Shown in pieces: positions 1 to 6,393 of a DNA stretch of 6,393 nucleotides. The stretch's first letter is position 1. Every line of letters starts with the position of its first letter. This stretch comes from a virus: the IMG/VR virus record IMGVR_UViG_3300029445_000308, positions 1-6,393 of that record; one strand, given 5' to 3'. Made by a program: the position numbers and the translations under genes. Below the pieces are notes generated by a model. That model had not been told where the DNA came from, did not search any database, and was given only the letters and a program-made list of their open reading frames with translations.

Positions 1-123
1 ACTAGCCCTTGTGGTATGGAATGGTTACCCCTCAACCATTGTCATCTTTGATGACCGACTTCAAAGGTACTATCCTTATATGTCGCCAATTTCAGCAAAA
101 AAGAGTAATATTTTTGCGTGATG
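1..123. repeat. Terminal redundancy of the window: bases 1-123 are identical to 6271-6393. The replicon is circular with a 6270-nt unit and has been read 123 nt past the junction
   Basis: Direct comparison shows actagcccttgtggtatgga...tttttgcgtgatg at both ends of the window. Confidence 0.9.
20..55. repeat. Two adjacent short hairpins: aatggtt-acccctc-aaccatt (20-40) and gtcatc-ttt-gatgac (41-55)
   Basis: Perfect 7-bp and 6-bp inverted repeats seen directly. They belong to the hairpin-dense non-coding block that spans the circular junction. Confidence 0.4.
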
Positions 124-170: not shown

Positions 171-223
171 CTTGCCTTTATCAAAAAATATAGATTACTT
201 TTGTAATATAAAAAAAGAGGAGG
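171..223 (+). promoter_or_regulatory. Candidate Bacteroidota-type promoter (-33-like cTTG at 171-174, -7 TActTTTG at 196-203) followed by a strong Shine-Dalgarno AGAGGAGG (216-223) 5 nt upstream of the ATG at 229
   Basis: The -7 element matches the TAnnTTTG consensus described for Bacteroides sigma-A promoters, with about 21 nt spacing to a TTG-like -33 element. AGGAGG with a 5-nt spacer is an ideal SD. No other gene start in this window has an SD. Confidence 0.3.
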
Positions 224-228
224 TATAT

Positions 229-429
229 ATGAAAAGAAAAAGCTATGCACGTGACCACATCACACTCCGTTTGACTTTTGAGGAGGTTTCTGTCTTGTCC
301 GTTCAGATTTTGTCTCAAATTTCAGAGGACCGATGTACTTTGGAGCAATCTCTAACTCCTGTTTTACGTCGGATTGTTGAACATCGAGCAGAAGTCTTGC
401 AAAGATTGTATGATATCATCAAGTCTTAG
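229..429 (+). CDS. Small hypothetical protein (67 aa; the alternative GTG/ATG start at 118/121 gives 103 aa). Possible ribbon-helix-helix or MobC-like DNA-binding protein
   Basis: ORF with a perfect SD and a TAG stop at 427-429. The N-terminus is basic (MKRKSYAR), then a predicted beta strand HITLRLTF, then two amphipathic helices (EEVSVLSVQILSQ and TLEQSLTPVLRRIVEHRAEVLQRLYDII). This is the beta-alpha-alpha pattern of RHH repressors. The fold assignment is inferred and has not been checked against homologs. Confidence 0.45.
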   Translation: MKRKSYARDHITLRLTFEEVSVLSVQILSQISEDRCTLEQSLTPVLRRIVEHRAEVLQRLYDIIKS

Positions 430-441
430 CAATTTTCAGAG

Positions 442-475
442 TATAGGACGGCACTACCGAGTGTGCCGTTCTATA
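442..475. repeat. Strong GC-rich hairpin: 13-bp stem (tataggacggcac / gtgccgttctata, one G.T) with an 8-nt loop, immediately after the stop of ORF 229-429
   Basis: Inverted repeat seen directly. No T-run follows, so it is not a canonical intrinsic terminator. Confidence 0.5.
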
Positions 476-558
476 CGCCACGACACAAGACGCGGACCAA
501 AGGGACGCCCTGCATCAACATCAAAAACGTGACTTTTTTTGAATAGAAAAAAGGACAC

Positions 559-582
559 AAAAATCGGTCAATCCCGATTTTT
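559..582 (+). terminator. Hairpin aaaaatcgg-tcaatc-ccgattttt, with the A-run and T-run forming the stem flanks. Resembles a bidirectional terminator
   Basis: Perfect 9-bp inverted repeat with a 6-nt loop, seen directly. Confidence 0.3.
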
Positions 583-585
583 CCG

Positions 586-622
586 CTGCACCTTGTGTGC
601 AGATAGGGCGATACTTCGCCCT
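586..622. repeat. Two tandem 6-bp GC hairpins (ctgcac-cttgt-gtgcag at 586-602 and agggcg-atactt-cgccct at 605-622) about 35 nt upstream of the Rep start. The motif CGCCCTGCA(A)TC occurs twice (506-516 and 617-628)
   Basis: Inverted and direct repeats seen directly. A role as Rep-binding iterons or promoter-region structure is inferred. Confidence 0.4.
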
Positions 623-656
623 GCAATCTAACATTTCATCCTAATATTTCAAGTGT

Positions 657-2237: not shown

Positions 2238-2525
2238 ATGCACTTACAACGTGTTTTTACTTTGGCTCATGACCAAACTTCTTCAAAAAAGATTGTGGAG
2301 AAAGAAAAACGCAATGTCAACAATTTATGTGTCGTTGTTGATGTCGACCCTTGTGAATTGACACCTATTATGGACCGTTCTTTATGGAGTGTTGAAGTAA
2401 TGATGAAGAACCCTTCAATGGCTGTACCTCTGAATCCTTCGGTTCTTGATTCTCCTGACTTTGTAAAAGTAGATGCTATTGAAAAAATCTTAAAAGCTCA
2501 AGAAAATGAAAGTACAAGTAAATAA
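2238..2525 (+). CDS. Hypothetical protein, 95 aa, mildly acidic. Possibly an internal scaffolding or other assembly protein. A TTG start at 2175 would give 116 aa but would overlap the lipoprotein ORF
   Basis: It is ORF-coupled to the upstream gene (TGAtATG) and overlaps the VP1 start by 20 nt. It lies between rep and the major capsid gene, where phiX174 carries its scaffold and J genes. I recognise no motif, so the function is inferred from position only. Confidence 0.5.
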   Translation: MHLQRVFTLAHDQTSSKKIVEKEKRNVNNLCVVVDVDPCELTPIMDRSLWSVEVMMKNPSMAVPLNPSVLDSPDFVKVDAIEKILKAQENESTSK

Positions 2526-4758
2526 ATCTAATTCTCGCAGTTACGCACACAATTATCGTATCACTAATTCAACTACATGTGATTTTGGTTTCGTTCAACC
2601 GCTTTTCATGCGCCAACTGTTCAACTCTTCTACTAAAGGTAAGGTATCTATAAAAGGTACCCTTGGCCAGTTCATGCGTCTTGCTCCGATGCCTTTTCCA
2701 ACTTTTGGTGAGGTCAAGTTGGATACATTGGCTGTTGGCGTGCCCATTGAGCAGGTTTTTCCTGCTTGGGCTTCATTTATGTCTGGTAAGGATTATCAGT
2801 ACGGTTCTGAAGCTGCATATTATCCAACGTATTTACCTTCGACTACTAATGCAGTACTAACTCTAGAGTTGTACAATTTATTTGGAATTCAGAAATTTTA
2901 TGTCAATGATAATGACTCTCAGCCTCGCAGTGCTCCCTCTGCCTTGTCTTCATCCTCAAGTCTTGATGATGATGTTCTTTTAGAACTTTCAAATGTATCT
3001 CTTTTGCCTTTTGACGTTCTCGAATCTGAATGTCGTAAGGTATATGATACCAATGACCATACATTACCGTCCACTTACGTAGTTTTTAAATATAAGGATG
3101 GTGATATTTCTATTTCTATCCCTACATTGACAATCTTCTTTGATTATTTCGATGGAAAGATTTCAAAGTCCTATGTCATGCAGTTGCTAGGTTATACTGA
3201 GACTACCTCTAAGGTAGCTTCTCTTGCTCAGTCTGAATCACAGCTTAATGAAGCTTTGTCTTATCTTAATTCAGCTGATTATGTTCATTTTAGTGTAGGT
3301 GGTTTTACTACTTATAAATTATCCGATAAAGGTCGTGCTTTGCGCAAGGTTTTAGTCGGTCTTGGGTATAATCTCTCTATGGATGATACTACGTCTGTTT
3401 CTATTCTTCCGCTCCTCGCTTGTTATAAGGCCTATTTTGATAATTTTTACCCTAATCGTGGTATTGATTGGCAGGCTACAGTATGTGTATCTTTAATTAA
3501 TGTCATTCAGCGTAAAAACATCTTCGATGTGTACTCTGACCCTGTTTCTCGGCCTATTTTTGAAAGGTTCTTGACTGAGGAATTGTCCTCGATGTACAGC
3601 ACTCATGCAATGGATTTCATTTCATTGCACACAAACAATGTATCAAATGGAAATAATCCGTTTAAGGAAAATATCGGTATTCCTAATAGCTATGAAACAG
3701 CCATGTCTTGGCAGCAGGAAGCTTCATATAAACCTAATGCTTCAGGTGAAAATCTTCATAACTCTGCTGTGTCTGAAGGTTTAGCTGGAGCCCATCCTAT
3801 CATTCCGAAAGATAGAGATATCACATCATGGTCTATTCAGTTTGTTTTGGCTTTGCAAAAGTATGTCAATAAGGATTCGATTATCGGGAACCGTGTTAAA
3901 ACATGGCTTAAGTCTCATCTCAATCAAGATGTTTTCAATAGTCTGTATAATACTACCGATTTTGTGTCCCGTAATAGTATTGACGTACAAATCGGTGATA
4001 TTGACAGTAATGCATCTACCGATACAGCCGAGCTTGGCTCTTATGCTGGTAAAGGTATTGCTAAAGGAAATGGTTTGTCCTTTTTCTATGAATGCTCTAC
4101 AGCTTCGATATTTTTTATCTTTGCATATATTTCGCCAACTACTGGGTATTATCAAGGTACAGACGCCACTTTGTGTATGGTAGATAAGTGGAGTATGCCG
4201 TCTTCTGAGTTTGACGCTTTGGGATATGAATTGACACCACGTTCGGTAATGTTTACAGACAATGGCATATCATGTATTGATGCCATACCTTCAAATCAGA
4301 ACTTTAATAAAAACATGTATGTATGTTCTAATCATGACGGATTTGGATTCATGCCTCGTGGTTCGGTTTGGAAGTATGCTAAAAACATAGTAAATGGTGA
4401 TATGTCCCTTCGCTCTAAGCGTAATACATATAAATCCTTTTATCTTGACCGTGAGTTGATTTTGCGGTATGCCGTCATAGAAAATAAACTAGGTTCTACG
4501 GATAAAACGATTCATGTAAAATTGAATCGATGTCCTCTGGCTTCTTCTGCCTGGCAATACATTAGTCGGTACGACTACCTGAGCAATTACAACCGCATAT
4601 TTTATAATAGCGGTAATGAGAATTTGCAGATAAACTATATCGACGATAATTTCATTCTTCATAATGTAATAGACTTCACTGAAGTCAATAGCCTAAAACC
4701 GCTCTCAATTTCGTATGATGTTGAAGACGGTGCCCCAATGGATATTGAAAAAGCTTAG
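2506..4758 (+). CDS. Major capsid protein (Microviridae VP1 / F-like), 750 aa
   Basis: Largest ORF, lying between the rep/small-gene module and the pilot-protein gene. The N-terminal region (SNSRSYAHNYRI...FGFVQPLFMRQLF...GTLGQFMRLAPMPFPTFGEVKLD) has the basic-then-beta-rich character of microvirus VP1 N-termini. A length of about 750 aa is typical of Alpavirinae-like capsids, against about 550 aa in gokushoviruses. TAG stop at 4756-4758. Confidence 0.8.
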   Translation: MKVQVNKSNSRSYAHNYRITNSTTCDFGFVQPLFMRQLFNSSTKGKVSIKGTLGQFMRLAPMPFPTFGEVKLDTLAVGVPIEQVFPAWASFMSGKDYQYGSEAAYYPTYLPSTTNAVLTLELYNLFGIQKFYVNDNDSQPRSAPSALSSSSSLDDDVLLELSNVSLLPFDVLESECRKVYDTNDHTLPSTYVVFKYKDGDISISIPTLTIFFDYFDGKISKSYVMQLLGYTETTSKVASLAQSESQLNEALSYLNSADYVHFSVGGFTTYKLSDKGRALRKVLVGLGYNLSMDDTTSVSILPLLACYKAYFDNFYPNRGIDWQATVCVSLINVIQRKNIFDVYSDPVSRPIFERFLTEELSSMYSTHAMDFISLHTNNVSNGNNPFKENIGIPNSYETAMSWQQEASYKPNASGENLHNSAVSEGLAGAHPIIPKDRDITSWSIQFVLALQKYVNKDSIIGNRVKTWLKSHLNQDVFNSLYNTTDFVSRNSIDVQIGDIDSNASTDTAELGSYAGKGIAKGNGLSFFYECSTASIFFIFAYISPTTGYYQGTDATLCMVDKWSMPSSEFDALGYELTPRSVMFTDNGISCIDAIPSNQNFNKNMYVCSNHDGFGFMPRGSVWKYAKNIVNGDMSLRSKRNTYKSFYLDRELILRYAVIENKLGSTDKTIHVKLNRCPLASSAWQYISRYDYLSNYNRIFYNSGNENLQINYIDDNFILHNVIDFTEVNSLKPLSISYDVEDGAPMDIEKA

Positions 4759-4770
4759 TATATCACAAGA

Positions 4771-4807
4771 GTAGGTACATTTGTTTGTGCCTACCCTTGT
4801 TTTTTTT
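4771..4807 (+). terminator. Rho-independent-type terminator after VP1: gtaggtaca-tttgtt-tgtgcctac (9-bp stem, one G.T) followed by cc and then a TTGTTTTTTTT run
   Basis: Inverted repeat plus a T-run seen directly, 13 nt after the VP1 stop. Confidence 0.6.
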
Positions 4808-4828
4808 AACAACTAAAAAAATACATAT

Positions 4829-5956
4829 ATGGGATTTTTTGATAAATTCGGTGGCGCCATTATAAATGGATTTGGTGCTCTTGCAGGTACTGCCACTTCA
4901 GCAATAAATTCTGCTGCTAATCGTAGATTTATGCAGCAGCAGCAAAAAAGAGAGTTTGAACAACAAAATGCAATGTATGATAAACAGCGTAAGGACGCTT
5001 TGTCGGATTACGCCACCCAGCGTCAAGACTATGTAAATGATTTGTTGATGTCGCGCTCTCGTGACGTTCAAGCATTACAAAATGCTGGACTTTCTACCGC
5101 TTTAGCTGGTGAGCAGTCCGTTGGCGGAAATGCTTTAGGCTCCGCCGTACAACAATCTTCTTTTGCTTCTCCAAATAGTGTCGCTTCTTCGCAGCCTTAT
5201 GACATTCAGGCTCCAAACATGATGTTTACTGCACAACTCGCTAATCTTATTGCAGATACTAATAAAAAGGATGCCGAAGCTAATAAGACAAAGACTGAAG
5301 CCGAACGAGCACAAGCCGAGTTCGTGAATTGGCGTGATGTTCAGAAGGATGTCATTAATGACACAATGAAAGCAGCTCTCACTAAGATAAATTCGGAAAA
5401 GAATTCAGCCTGGTTTAAAGCTGCACAAGATGCCAATCAGTATTCATTTGATATGCAAGAAGTTGATGAAATGGACGAAAATGGAAAGCCAACAGGTAAG
5501 AAGATTTTCCGCTATGAGCAAAATTTGCGTAATTCTATGAAGCAGTTGCAATTGCAAGTCGATACAATGACCTTCAATTATAATAAGGCTAAGGATTTCA
5601 AGCCTTGGGAGTTGAAGCAATTGCAGGAGACTATCAATCAGATTACAGCTAATGTAGCCTTACTTAAAGATAAGGACGAGCAACAGAAGATTTTAAATAT
5701 GTTCAATCGTGCAGGAATTGGCATTGGTCATGGTTTGATTGATTCTCTTGCCGCCTTGCTCTATTCTGATAAAGGTAATGAACTTGCTACACGTGCGGTA
5801 TCTACTTTGACGGATTTTGTAAAAGGTATTTTTACAAGTATGTTCAAGCTTGTAAAAGGAGAAGGTGTTTCTTCTGGTCCTTTTGGTGGAGAAGTTTCTG
5901 GCACACCAACACACTTGGTTGACCCTAGAGCACACGGTGCCACCTCTTCATGGTAA
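4829..5956 (+). CDS. Minor capsid / DNA pilot protein (Microviridae VP2 / H-like), 375 aa
   Basis: Gly/Ala-rich N-terminus (MGFFDKFGGAIINGFGALAGTATSAINSAA), then a poly-Q stretch (QQQQKREFEQQ) and long Q/A/K/E-rich segments predicted to be helical or coiled-coil, then a Gly-rich C-terminus (GEGVSSGPFGGEVSGT). It lies immediately downstream of VP1, as in Microviridae. The start context is A-rich with no SD. Confidence 0.7.
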   Translation: MGFFDKFGGAIINGFGALAGTATSAINSAANRRFMQQQQKREFEQQNAMYDKQRKDALSDYATQRQDYVNDLLMSRSRDVQALQNAGLSTALAGEQSVGGNALGSAVQQSSFASPNSVASSQPYDIQAPNMMFTAQLANLIADTNKKDAEANKTKTEAERAQAEFVNWRDVQKDVINDTMKAALTKINSEKNSAWFKAAQDANQYSFDMQEVDEMDENGKPTGKKIFRYEQNLRNSMKQLQLQVDTMTFNYNKAKDFKPWELKQLQETINQITANVALLKDKDEQQKILNMFNRAGIGIGHGLIDSLAALLYSDKGNELATRAVSTLTDFVKGIFTSMFKLVKGEGVSSGPFGGEVSGTPTHLVDPRAHGATSSW

Positions 5957-5957
5957 T

Positions 5958-5999
5958 ATGTGCGCGCGTGCGTGCGTTTTCGCGTGCGTGCGTGCGCAT
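5958..5999. repeat. Alternating purine/pyrimidine tract atgtgcgcgcgtgcgtgcg-TTTT-cgcgtgcgtgcgtgcgcat: two 19-nt perfect Pu/Py alternating blocks (GC/GT dinucleotides) separated by TTTT. Classic Z-DNA-forming sequence
   Basis: Seen directly. Every position in 5958-5976 and in 5981-5999 alternates R/Y. It sits 2 nt after the VP2 stop in an otherwise AT-rich genome. Confidence 0.8.
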
Positions 6000-6027
6000 T
6001 TTTATCTTACAGGTAAAAGCGTAGCGT

Positions 6028-6055
6028 TTCTTTTTTCTTCGAAGAAAAAAAAGAA
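6028..6055. repeat. A/T-rich near-perfect palindrome tttcttttttcttc|gaagaaaaaaaagaaa centred on TTCGAA (10 bp perfect, extendable with a 2-nt bulge)
   Basis: Seen directly. 6031-6040 is the exact reverse complement of 6041-6050. Confidence 0.7.
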
Positions 6056-6124
6056 TTTACCATACGTTTTATATCCACGAACACATCGAACCATAGCAAA
6101 TGAAAAGAAAATCAGTGAAACGGT

Positions 6125-6265
6125 GCTTTTTAGGCGACTGGTCGCCGGTGCGGAGCAAAAAAGCAGATTTTCACATATACGTTTGTCGGAACACTCCGGA
6201 GCCTTGGCGTCGTCGGTCGCTCGAGGCTTCGGTGACTCTGCCTTCATTCCGTTCAGCGAACGGAG
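6125..6265. other. GC-rich cluster of hairpins. (a) 6125-6164: outer stem gcttttt/aaaaagc enclosing ggcga-ctgg-tcgcc. (b) 6187-6198: cgga-acac-tccg. (c) 6196-6232: ccggagcc...ggcttcgg, 8 bp with one G.T. (d) 6247-6265: ttccgttc-agc-gaacggag. Candidate complementary-strand origin or priming site, or a structured RNA
   Basis: Inverted repeats seen directly. Local GC content is far above the genome average, and no credible ORF is present. In phiX174 and G4, intergenic hairpin clusters serve as primosome-assembly or primase-recognition sites for (-)-strand synthesis. The function here is inferred. Confidence 0.3.
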
Positions 6266-6393
6266 CATATACTAGCCCTTGTGGTATGGAATGGTTACCC
6301 CTCAACCATTGTCATCTTTGATGACCGACTTCAAAGGTACTATCCTTATATGTCGCCAATTTCAGCAAAAAAGAGTAATATTTTTGCGTGATG

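What the first reader, a model, noticed from the sequence alone, without database searches (positions are those of the whole stretch)
5958..5999. 42-nt (GTGC/GCGC)n alternating purine-pyrimidine tract, a potential Z-DNA element, immediately after VP2
Two 19-nt perfectly alternating R/Y blocks rich in CG and TG steps, separated by TTTT. This is a textbook Z-DNA-forming sequence and is highly anomalous in an AT-rich phage genome. Z-prone tracts can act as recombination hotspots, transcriptional barriers or protein-recognition sites. The 3' end (GTGCGCAT followed by an AT-rich stretch) also loosely resembles the XerC-binding arm of a dif site (E. coli GGTGCGCATAA). Bacteroidota microvirus prophages have been proposed to integrate through host Xer recombination at dif-like sites.
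Basis: partly seen in the sequence, partly recalled or inferred. Interest (0 to 1): 0.55.

Follow-up and report, generated by a model that had tools for sequence, protein, structure and literature searches.

The report
Conserved wobble-paired hairpin after VP2
The GC-rich alternating tract just after the VP2 gene of this small gut phage is a strand-specific 19-pair hairpin, kept almost unchanged in many related phages; it most likely ends the capsid-gene transcript, and it is not a host recombination (dif) site.

Summary
Positions 5958-5999 hold two 19-nt alternating purine/pyrimidine blocks around TTTT, one base after the VP2 stop codon. On the + strand they form a 19-bp hairpin in which about a third of the pairs are G.U/G.T wobbles (RNA -33 kcal/mol). 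The - strand folds half as well. TTTTTATCTT follows the stem, making this the top terminator-like site in the genome.

The tract is 98-100% identical in four relatives whose VP1 genes are only about 70% identical. A bipartite (GY)n hairpin of the same design occurs once per genome in 10 of 12 GenBank relatives sampled without regard to the tract, always on the coding strand, and in scattered gokushovirus-like contigs.

Pairing, not alternation, is the constrained feature: A always faces T, a short central loop separates the two arms in every lineage, and one lineage breaks alternation but keeps pairing.

The dif idea fails. The match is 15/28, below chance, and the prophage junction in a related clade lies about 600 nt away.

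Best reading: an RNA hairpin acting as intrinsic terminator or 3'-end stabiliser of the VP1-VP2 transcript. A role as a virion-strand DNA hairpin, for example in complementary-strand priming, is a serious rival. Z-DNA is physically possible but is not what the evidence points to.

The parts
4829..5956 (+). VP2-like (pilot protein) gene, the last gene of the VP1-VP2 block; stop codon TAA at 5954-5956
   Evidence: ORF list. BLASTP E 6e-26 to the ORF annotated 'similar to VP2' in MG945350. It follows VP1 2506-4758 (Phage_F, phrog_514).
5958..5976 (+). 5' arm of the hairpin (ATGTGCGCGCGTGCGTGCG)
   Evidence: RNA and DNA folds; terminator scan; pair table.
5977..5980 (+). TTTT loop; the only break in purine/pyrimidine alternation
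   Evidence: The loop is T-rich (TT, TTT, TTTT) in most lineages, but other lineages carry tcac, tcc, ct, c, attta or a 12-nt AAATAGCTTGCT.
5981..5999 (+). 3' arm of the hairpin (CGCGTGCGTGCGTGCGCAT)
6000..6009 (+). T-rich tail TTTTATCTTA; with T5999 it makes a run of five T
   Evidence: The tail is T-rich but variable in the four close relatives.
4771..4808 (+). Second terminator-like hairpin (GTAGGTACA-loop-TGTGCCTAC) plus a T run, 13 nt after the VP1 stop. It shows that the genome uses hairpin+T elements after its capsid genes.
   Evidence: conserved in all five related genomes.
6010..6393 (+). Start of the roughly 540-nt conserved, structured non-coding region that the hairpin borders. It continues at 124-228, because 6271-6393 repeats 1-123.
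   Evidence: Alignment and identity profile; compensatory pairs; no Rfam match.
172..203 (+). Bacteroidota-type promoter-like motif, TTG at 172-174 and TACTTTTG at 196-203, ahead of ORF 229-429; the next transcription start after the hairpin
   Evidence: Sequence; conserved in all five relatives. The motif consensus TTTG/TAnnTTTG is from my own knowledge.

Best explanation
The tract is a strand-specific hairpin. On the + strand, which is the coding strand, its two (GCGY)n arms pair into 19 base pairs around a TTTT loop. About a third of the pairs are G.U wobbles.

In this genome it sits one base after the stop codon of the last capsid-block gene. A T-rich tail follows, then about 540 nt of non-coding DNA and the next promoter. 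The hairpin therefore most likely forms in the nascent VP1-VP2 mRNA, where it terminates transcription and/or protects the 3' end as an intrinsic terminator or stabiliser.

Because wobble pairs are good in RNA and poor in DNA, the same sequence makes a strong RNA hairpin and only a moderate DNA one, and cannot form on the complementary strand.

Shown: the hairpin, its strand asymmetry, its conservation and its position. Inferred: that RNA polymerase actually stops there, and that this is the selected function rather than a role of the same hairpin in the single-stranded virion DNA.
For: - Fold energies: + strand RNA -33.2 kcal/mol, z -3.9; + strand DNA -15.3, z -2.2; - strand RNA -14.6, z -0.4.
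- It is the best terminator-like site in the window: 19 pairs, a 4-nt loop, tail TTTTATCTTA.
- Position: 1 nt after the VP2 stop. All recognised genes are on the + strand.
- A shorter hairpin plus T8 follows VP1 and is conserved.
- Relatives that lack the tract carry ordinary GC hairpins with T runs at the same place after VP2: L012, L019, L025, L199, L201.
- Conservation: the tract is 98-100% identical where VP1 is about 70% and VP2 82-89%.
- Pairing is the constrained feature. Helices are continuous at 12-19 bp in all 21 lineages. All 21 A residues in stems face T. L024/L027 carry a double transversion that keeps pairing but breaks alternation.
- Bacteroidota terminators are reported to be close to the classical hairpin+U type (PMC13613805).
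Against: - Outside this clade the T-rich tail is present in only about half of the lineages.
- Location varies from 6 nt to about 480 nt after VP2. In L202 the hairpin lies between Rep and VP1.
- The L006 clade, L162 and L197 also have a canonical hairpin+T terminator upstream: immediately upstream in the L006 clade, about 45 nt in L162, about 300 nt in L197.
- Sequence-level conservation of GCGTGCGTGCG-TTT-CGCGTGCGTGCG across very different microviruses is more than a terminator normally shows.
- In L150 and L174 the G/T hairpin is on the strand opposite to VP1 and Rep, so it cannot be an mRNA element there.
- No transcript data are available.
Confidence: 0.45

Rival explanations
1. The hairpin acts in the single-stranded virion DNA rather than in RNA. 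It would be a stable duplex island that survives SSB coating and serves as, or is part of, the signal for host-driven complementary-strand synthesis, or another replication step. It may work together with the structured non-coding region it borders. Termination in this genome would then be a side effect or a second job.
For: - It forms in + strand DNA (-15.3 kcal/mol, z -2.2).
- There is one copy per genome, it is always non-coding, and its location varies within intergenic DNA.
- In 25 of 25 microvirus genomes the G/T version is on the T-rich strand. This includes L150 and L174, where the genes are on the other strand.
- It coexists with canonical terminators in several lineages.
- It borders a non-coding region that is more conserved than the genes and shows compensatory pairs.
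- The literature expects such hairpins in microviruses but has not identified them (PMC9865509 section 3.8).
Against: - G.T mismatches weaken a DNA hairpin, so selection for a DNA structure would favour Watson-Crick pairs.
- The tract is absent from 2 of 12 sampled Alpavirinae-like genomes and from 6 of 6 sampled gokushoviruses, including Chlamydia phage phiCPAR39. It is therefore not a universal replication signal.
- L150 and L174 are probably one lineage, so the orientation argument rests on a single event.
- Which strand those viruses package is unknown.
Confidence: 0.3
2. The tract works in double-stranded replicative-form DNA as a Z-DNA-forming element, for example a supercoil sink, a transcription barrier or a recombination hotspot.
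For: - Each arm alternates strictly with CG and TG steps.
- Alternation is preserved in almost all lineages, and differences between lineages are transitions.
- A crude B-Z energy balance becomes favourable at superhelical density of -0.04 or lower (parameters from memory).
- d(CGCGTG) is known to crystallise as Z-DNA with G.T wobbles (my recollection, not checked).
Against: - Transitions preserve alternation automatically in a wobble-tolerant hairpin, so conserved alternation need not be selected.
- Every lineage has a central non-alternating loop between its two arms, which Z-DNA does not need.
- A always faces T.
- L024/L027 break alternation and keep pairing.
- Strand asymmetry is irrelevant to Z-DNA, yet it is universal.
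- At in vivo effective supercoiling of about -0.025 to -0.03 the estimate is unfavourable.
Confidence: 0.07
3. The 3' end of the tract (GTGCGCAT plus AT-rich DNA) is a dif-like XerC/XerD site used for prophage integration.
For: - GTGCGCAT matches 8 bases of the E. coli XerC arm.
- Bacteroidales microvirus proviruses are flanked by dif-like sites (PMC3091885).
- A related clade really does carry such a site.
Against: - The best alignment to dif is 15/28, with 5/16 in the inner conserved part. Shuffled genomes reach 17-18, and other places in the window score 17.
- The would-be XerD arm is deleted in L002 and variable in the others.
- In prophage L006/L007 and related contigs the 16-bp att core ATCATAATGTCCATTA lies about 600 nt downstream of the tract, and the tract is internal to the prophage.
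- The window has no match to that att or to the dif core.
- No prophage of the window's clade was found.
Confidence: 0.02
4. The two arms are direct repeats (CGCGTGCGTGCG twice, 16 nt apart) bound by Rep or another protein, like the iterons of other rolling-circle replicons.
For: A 12-nt perfect direct repeat lies at 5965-5976 and 5981-5992.
Against: - In other lineages the arms are complementary but are not direct repeats. In L006 they are TGCGTGCGCGCGCGCGC and CGTGTGTGCGTACGCAT.
- The same sequence occurs with very different Rep proteins, 250-300 aa in gokushovirus-like contigs and 450-500 aa here.
Confidence: 0.04

Closest known systems
Rho-independent (intrinsic) terminators, including the intergenic hairpins after genes J, F, G and H of phiX174 (from my own knowledge)
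   Same: A GC-rich stem-loop on the transcribed strand, immediately after a structural gene and followed by a T run. A second such element follows VP1. Relatives without the tract have ordinary terminators in the same place.
   Different: The stem is very long at 19 bp, and a third of its pairs are G.U in regular 5'-UG/3'-GU tandems. Purine/pyrimidine alternation is strict. The sequence, not only the structure, is conserved across distant viruses. The T tail is not conserved across the family. One lineage carries the tract antisense to its genes.
Complementary-strand origins of ssDNA replicons: the phiX174 PriA (n') site, G4 oric, the M13 minus-strand origin hairpins, and the sso elements of rolling-circle plasmids (from my own knowledge; see also PMC9865509)
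   Same: A stable hairpin on the virion or coding strand in an intergenic region, one per genome, next to other conserved hairpins.
   Different: There is no sequence similarity to any of them. No priming evidence exists. The wobble-rich stem is weaker in DNA than in RNA. Many microviruses lack it.
Z-DNA-forming (CG)n/(TG)n tracts
   Same: Alternating purine/pyrimidine tracts rich in CG and TG steps, each arm 19 bp.
   Different: The tract is split by a T loop into two complementary arms. It is strand-asymmetric, and the constraint follows pairing rather than alternation.
dif-like attP sites of Bacteroidales microvirus proviruses (BMV/Alpavirinae; Krupovic and Forterre 2011, PMC3091885)
   Same: The same virus group. 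A genuine dif-like att exists in a related clade, in the same long non-coding region.
   Different: That att (ATCATAATGTCCATTA core) is a separate element about 600 nt from the tract. The window's tract does not match dif above chance.

Membership tests
Intrinsic (Rho-independent) terminator | Stable GC-rich stem-loop in the RNA of the transcribed strand | tested here: met
   -33.2 kcal/mol, z -3.9, 19 pairs, 4-nt loop. The opposite strand folds to only -14.6.
Intrinsic (Rho-independent) terminator | U-rich tract directly 3' of the stem | tested here: met
   In the window, T5999-T6003 are followed by ATCTT. Across the family the tail is T-rich in only about half of the lineages, so the result is inconclusive for the element as a class.
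Intrinsic (Rho-independent) terminator | Lies at the end of a co-directional transcription unit, before the next promoter | tested here: met
   It lies 1 nt after the VP2 stop. About 540 nt of non-coding DNA follow, then a Bacteroidota-type promoter-like motif at 172-203.
Intrinsic (Rho-independent) terminator | RNA 3' ends map to the U tract | not testable with these tools
   No transcript data are available.
dif / XerCD recombination site | 28-bp site with two 11-bp arms and a 6-bp spacer matching the dif consensus above chance | tested here: not met
   The best match is 15/28 at 5991, with 5/16 in the inner part. Shuffles reach 17-18, and other window sites score 17. There is no match to the dif core pattern.
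dif / XerCD recombination site | Prophage-host junctions fall at the site | tested here: not met
   In L006/L007 and the L014-L022 contigs the junction repeat ATCATAATGTCCATTA lies about 600 nt downstream of the tract. No prophage of the window's own clade was found.
dif / XerCD recombination site | Both arms conserved in relatives | tested here: not met
   The sequence 3' of GCGCAT is variable, and it is deleted in L002.
Z-DNA-forming element | Long alternating purine/pyrimidine run with CG/TG steps | tested here: met
   Runs of 22 and 19 nt.
Z-DNA-forming element | B-to-Z transition favourable at physiological supercoiling | tested here: inconclusive
   A crude estimate for one arm gives +5 to +7.5 kcal/mol at sigma -0.03 to -0.025 and -5 to -11 at -0.05 to -0.06 (parameters from memory).
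Z-DNA-forming element | Alternation itself, rather than pairing, is what evolution preserves | tested here: not met
   L024/L027 keep a 13-bp helix but break alternation (GGG/CC). A always faces T. A central loop separates the two arms in every lineage.
Complementary-strand (minus) origin hairpin of ssDNA phages | Stable hairpin on the packaged strand | tested here: inconclusive
   The DNA fold is -15.3 kcal/mol, z -2.2. It is always on the T-rich strand. The packaged strand is inferred, not known.
Complementary-strand (minus) origin hairpin of ssDNA phages | Supports primer synthesis by host primase, RNA polymerase or PriA | not testable with these tools
   This needs a biochemical or M13-rescue assay.

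The most novel reading that the evidence does not exclude
The (GCGY)n wobble hairpin is a previously undescribed, horizontally shared cis-element of Microviridae that acts on the single-stranded virion DNA. On this reading it is the missing complementary-strand initiation signal of Bacteroidota microviruses, and its orientation marks the packaged strand. Genomes such as L150 and L174 would then package the strand antisense to their genes.
Probability: 0.25. Interest if true: 0.75.

Novelty: new variant of a known kind. Interest (0 to 1): 0.5.

Why it matters
Cis-acting signals of uncultured gut microviruses are essentially unmapped. This element is a simple, recognisable marker. It occurs once per genome and is strand-locked. 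It is found in most sampled Alpavirinae-like genomes and in some gokushovirus-like ones.

- If it is a terminator, it defines the 3' end of the capsid operon. It also shows an RNA-only hairpin design that suits an ssDNA genome.
- If it acts in ssDNA, it would locate the complementary-strand origin, which has long been expected but not identified outside the E. coli phages.

It also corrects a tempting but wrong assignment of the integration site.

Tried and rejected
- DNA search of the whole window and of 5700-6393 against GenBank phages found nothing.
- Rfam at E<=1 found nothing.
- VP2-based search of IMG/VR gave no relatives. The exact tract in IMG/VR gave nothing.
- VP1-profile search of GTDB genomes for prophages gave nothing.
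- A pattern scan of GTDB genomes returned 120 or more hits. Judged from the organism list alone (mostly high-GC taxa; sequences not inspected), these look like compound (GCGT)n microsatellites and were uninformative.
- The conserved downstream motif TTCATTCCGTTCAGYGAACGG is absent from IMG/VR.
- Literature searches for Microviridae plus Z-DNA, for gokushovirus hairpins and for the motif string found nothing relevant.
- Chi-like site (Lactococcus Chi GCGCGTG, from memory): GCGCGTG is present at 5964-5970 but is lost in L001 and L005, so I rejected it.
- Iteron or direct-repeat reading: the arms are not direct repeats in other lineages, so I rejected it.
- Coding reading of ORF 6100-6321: a 2-nt indel in L001 and a deletion in L002 break the frame, so I rejected it.
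- An internal promoter at TACGTTTG (about 6179-6186) is not conserved in L004 or L005.
- Formal alignment-based covariation of the tract was abandoned. (GY)n repeats pair in several registers, so the alignment is ambiguous. I used a permutation test instead, with the caveat that choosing the MFE register biases it.

Full report
**What the window is.** The 6393 bases are a circular Microviridae genome of 6270 nt. Positions 1-123 repeat 6271-6393 exactly. All recognisable genes are on the + strand:
- Rep at 657-2009 (phrog_942);
- VP1 at 2506-4758 (Phage_F, phrog_514);
- a 375-aa ORF at 4829-5956, homologous to ORFs annotated 'similar to VP2' in GenBank relatives (E 6e-26).

VP1 is long (750 aa). 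GenBank relatives at 30-38% identity come from pig, human and lemur gut. A TTG...TAnnTTTG promoter-like motif lies at 172-203 (consensus from my own knowledge). Together these place the genome in the Bacteroidota-associated, Alpavirinae-like group.

**The observation.** The tract is as described: ATGTGCGCGCGTGCGTGCG, TTTT, CGCGTGCGTGCGTGCGCAT at 5958-5999, one base after the TAA of VP2. The alternating runs are 22 and 19 nt, and the next longest in the genome is 14 nt. A single run of 19 nt or more arises in 1.6% of dinucleotide shuffles.

The two blocks pair.
- On the + strand they give 19 consecutive pairs around the TTTT loop: 11 G-C, 6 G.U and 2 A-U. The RNA energy is -33.2 kcal/mol, z -3.9.
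- As DNA the hairpin is weaker, at -15.3 kcal/mol, z -2.2.
- On the - strand the wobbles become C.A mismatches and the fold is ordinary, at -14.6 kcal/mol, z -0.4.
- With the tail TTTTATCTTA it is the top terminator-like site in the genome.

**Conservation in close relatives.** Four genomes with VP1 about 70% identical (L001, L002, L004, L005) carry the tract at the same place. Nucleotide identity to the window, by segment:

| Segment | Identity to window |
|---|---|
| VP1 | about 70% |
| VP2 | 82-89% |
| Tract | 98-100% |
| Non-coding 6000-6237 | 88-95% |
| Intergenic 430-656 | 92-95% |

Within the stem the only substitution is C/T at 5965, which turns a C-G pair into U.G; in L001, L002 and L004 the closing A5958 is T, and in L004 T5999 is A, so the A5958-T5999 pair at the base of the stem is lost. 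The T-rich tail varies: TTTATTGT, TTCTTACC, ATTCTTTT, TTCTTTAT.

**Wider distribution.**
- More distant VP1 relatives at 29-37% identity (L006-L011, L013-L015, L017, L021, L022) have a bipartite (GY)n tract of the same design.
- In a GenBank sample chosen only by VP1 similarity, 10 of 12 genomes have one. It is always single and always on the + strand.
- Pattern scans also found it in gokushovirus-like contigs of 4.7 kb and very different GC content (L150, L158, L161, L162, L165, L174), in L156, and in the Alpavirinae-like L186-L188.
- An unbiased sample of six gokushoviruses, including Chlamydia phage phiCPAR39, has none.

The element is therefore common in the Alpavirinae-like group and sporadic elsewhere. 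I found no description of it in the literature or in Rfam.

**Hairpin or Z-DNA?**
- All 21 distinct versions fold into uninterrupted helices of 12-19 bp on the G/T-rich strand, with about one third wobble pairs. The other strand folds about half as well.
- Purines are almost always G, so (GY)n arms pair automatically. The informative positions are the rare A residues. All 21 in stems face T, never C. A permutation test gives summed log10 P of -7.8, inflated somewhat because the register was chosen by MFE.
- Every lineage has a short central loop that breaks alternation, which Z-DNA has no use for. In most lineages it is T-rich (TT, TTT, TTTT); others have tcac, tcc, ct, c, attta or a 12-nt loop.
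- L024/L027 carry GCGCGTGCGGGTG-TTCTTT-CGCCTGCGCGCG, a compensated double transversion that keeps 13 pairs but destroys alternation.
- Differences between lineages are otherwise transitions. In a wobble-tolerant stem these are near-neutral steps and preserve purine/pyrimidine class automatically. Conserved alternation therefore does not by itself argue for Z-DNA.
- A crude B-Z balance, with parameters from memory, is favourable only at sigma -0.04 or lower.

Z-DNA remains physically possible, but it is not what the comparative data point to.

**Not a dif site.**
- The best alignment of 5991-6018 to E. coli dif is 15/28, with 5/16 in the conserved inner half-sites. Shuffled genomes reach 17-18.
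- The supposed XerD arm is missing in L002.
- L006 is a related microvirus integrated in a 47-kb bacterial contig between a nitroreductase gene and a GHMP-kinase gene.
- That prophage is bounded by a perfect 16-bp repeat, ATCATAATGTCCATTA, 6660 nt apart. The context of the repeat (ATAATGTCCATTATGTT) does resemble dif, in line with Krupovic and Forterre 2011 (PMC3091885).
- The same core bounds L007 and four IMG/VR prophage cut-outs, and it occurs once as an intact attP in L021.
- In all of these the (GY)n hairpin lies inside the phage, about 600 nt upstream of the junction.
- The window and its close relatives have no copy of that att.

**Function.**

*For a terminator in this genome.* The position, the strand, the RNA stability and the T tail all fit. 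A second conserved hairpin plus T8 follows VP1. Relatives without the tract have ordinary GC hairpins with T runs right after VP2. Bacteroidota terminators are reported to be close to the classical type (PMC13613805). The wobble design gives a strong RNA hairpin with a much weaker DNA counterpart and none on the template strand, which seems sensible for an ssDNA genome; that last point is inference.

*Against a terminator as the whole story.*
- The T tail is present in only about half of the lineages.
- The location varies from 6 to about 480 nt after VP2, and in L202 the hairpin lies between Rep and VP1.
- The L006 clade, L162 and L197 also have a canonical terminator upstream: immediately upstream in the L006 clade, about 45 nt in L162, about 300 nt in L197.
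- The sequence itself recurs across very different viruses.
- In L150 and L174 the G/T hairpin is on the strand opposite to VP1 and Rep.
- Those two genomes have a mirror-image composition. The coding strand has T at 4-11% of third codon positions, against A at 4% in L165.
- As a result, in 25 of 25 genomes the hairpin sits on the T-rich strand.

These points fit a role in the single-stranded virion DNA, for example complementary-strand priming, which is expected for microviruses but not located (PMC9865509). However, L150 and L174 are probably a single lineage. In addition, C-to-T drift on one strand preserves wobble pairing on that strand without any selection. Many microviruses also lack the element.

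I therefore rank the readings as follows:

| Reading | Confidence |
|---|---|
| Terminator / 3'-end hairpin, for this genome | about 0.45 |
| ssDNA hairpin | about 0.3 |
| Z-DNA | about 0.07 |
| Iteron | about 0.04 |
| dif | about 0.02 |

**Context worth noting.** The hairpin is the 5' border of a non-coding region of about 540 nt (6000-6270 plus 1-228).
- That region is more conserved than the genes.
- It contains several hairpins with compensatory changes: 7 of 40 and 4 of 89 predicted pairs.
- It has no Rfam match.
- The ORF at 6100-6321 inside it is broken by indels in relatives.

This region and the conserved intergenic stretch 430-656 upstream of Rep are the natural candidates for the replication origins.

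**Verdict.** It is wrong on dif, and it misses the central point that the tract is a conserved, strand-specific, wobble-rich hairpin. That hairpin is an unusual variant of a known kind of element, of moderate interest, with a testable and more novel alternative reading.

Noticed in passing
window 1-123 and 6271-6393: Exact 123-nt terminal redundancy. The sequence is a circular genome of 6270 nt.
   Followed up: yes
window 6000-6393 and 124-228: About 540 nt of non-coding DNA that is more conserved than the genes (88-95% against about 70% for VP1). Several hairpins show compensatory changes, for example 6312-6326 GTCATC-TTT-GATGAC against GTCAAC-TAT-GTTGAC and GTTTC-GTT-AGAAAC, and AAGG..CCTT against AGCG..CGCT at about 6336-6349. 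There is no Rfam match. L002 lacks about 6003-6225. It could be a structured RNA or an ssDNA origin domain.
   Followed up: partly
window 4771-4808: Hairpin GTAGGTACA-loop-TGTGCCTAC with one T.G wobble, followed by a T8 run, 13 nt after the VP1 stop. It is conserved in all five related genomes and is probably an attenuating terminator between VP1 and VP2.
   Followed up: partly
window 430-656: The intergenic region upstream of Rep is 92-95% identical across relatives. It has a strong hairpin at about 441-476 (-24 kcal/mol) and further hairpins at about 587-630. It is a candidate plus-strand origin or regulatory region.
   Followed up: no
window 172-231: Bacteroidota-type promoter-like motif (TTG at 172-174, TACTTTTG at 196-203), a GGAGG ribosome-binding site and ATG at 229, starting a 66-aa ORF (229-429). 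That ORF is poorly conserved among relatives.
   Followed up: no
L150 (IMGVR_UViG_3300012286_000227) and L174 (IMGVR_UViG_3300030243_000080), whole contigs: Gokushovirus-like genomes whose coding strand is A/C-rich, with T at only 4-11% of third codon positions. This is the mirror image of L165 (A at 4%). The (GY)n hairpin sits on their non-coding, G/T-rich strand. They may package the antisense strand, or they may carry an inverted origin module.
   Followed up: partly
L006 7479-7494 and 14139-14154; L021 6365-6380: A microvirus prophage of 6660 nt in a 47-kb bacterial contig, bounded by the perfect repeat ATCATAATGTCCATTA. The intact attP TTTGTAATCATAATGTCCATTATGTTTGGA is seen in L021, and the site is dif-like. 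Four IMG/VR 'genomes' (L014, L015, L017, L022) are really prophage cut-outs with host flanks.
   Followed up: partly
L008 (ENA ERZ28668901 NODE_A427), 1-11478: The contig holds two different but related microvirus genomes in tandem, each with its own (GY)n hairpin (1198-1227 and 7662-7701). It is either a tandem or co-integrated prophage or an assembly chimera.
   Followed up: no
window 6022-6027: TAGCGT, conserved in the window, L001, L004 and L005, equals the CS-6 motif of ssoA single-strand origins of rolling-circle plasmids as I remember it. It is a 6-mer, so it may be chance.
   Followed up: no
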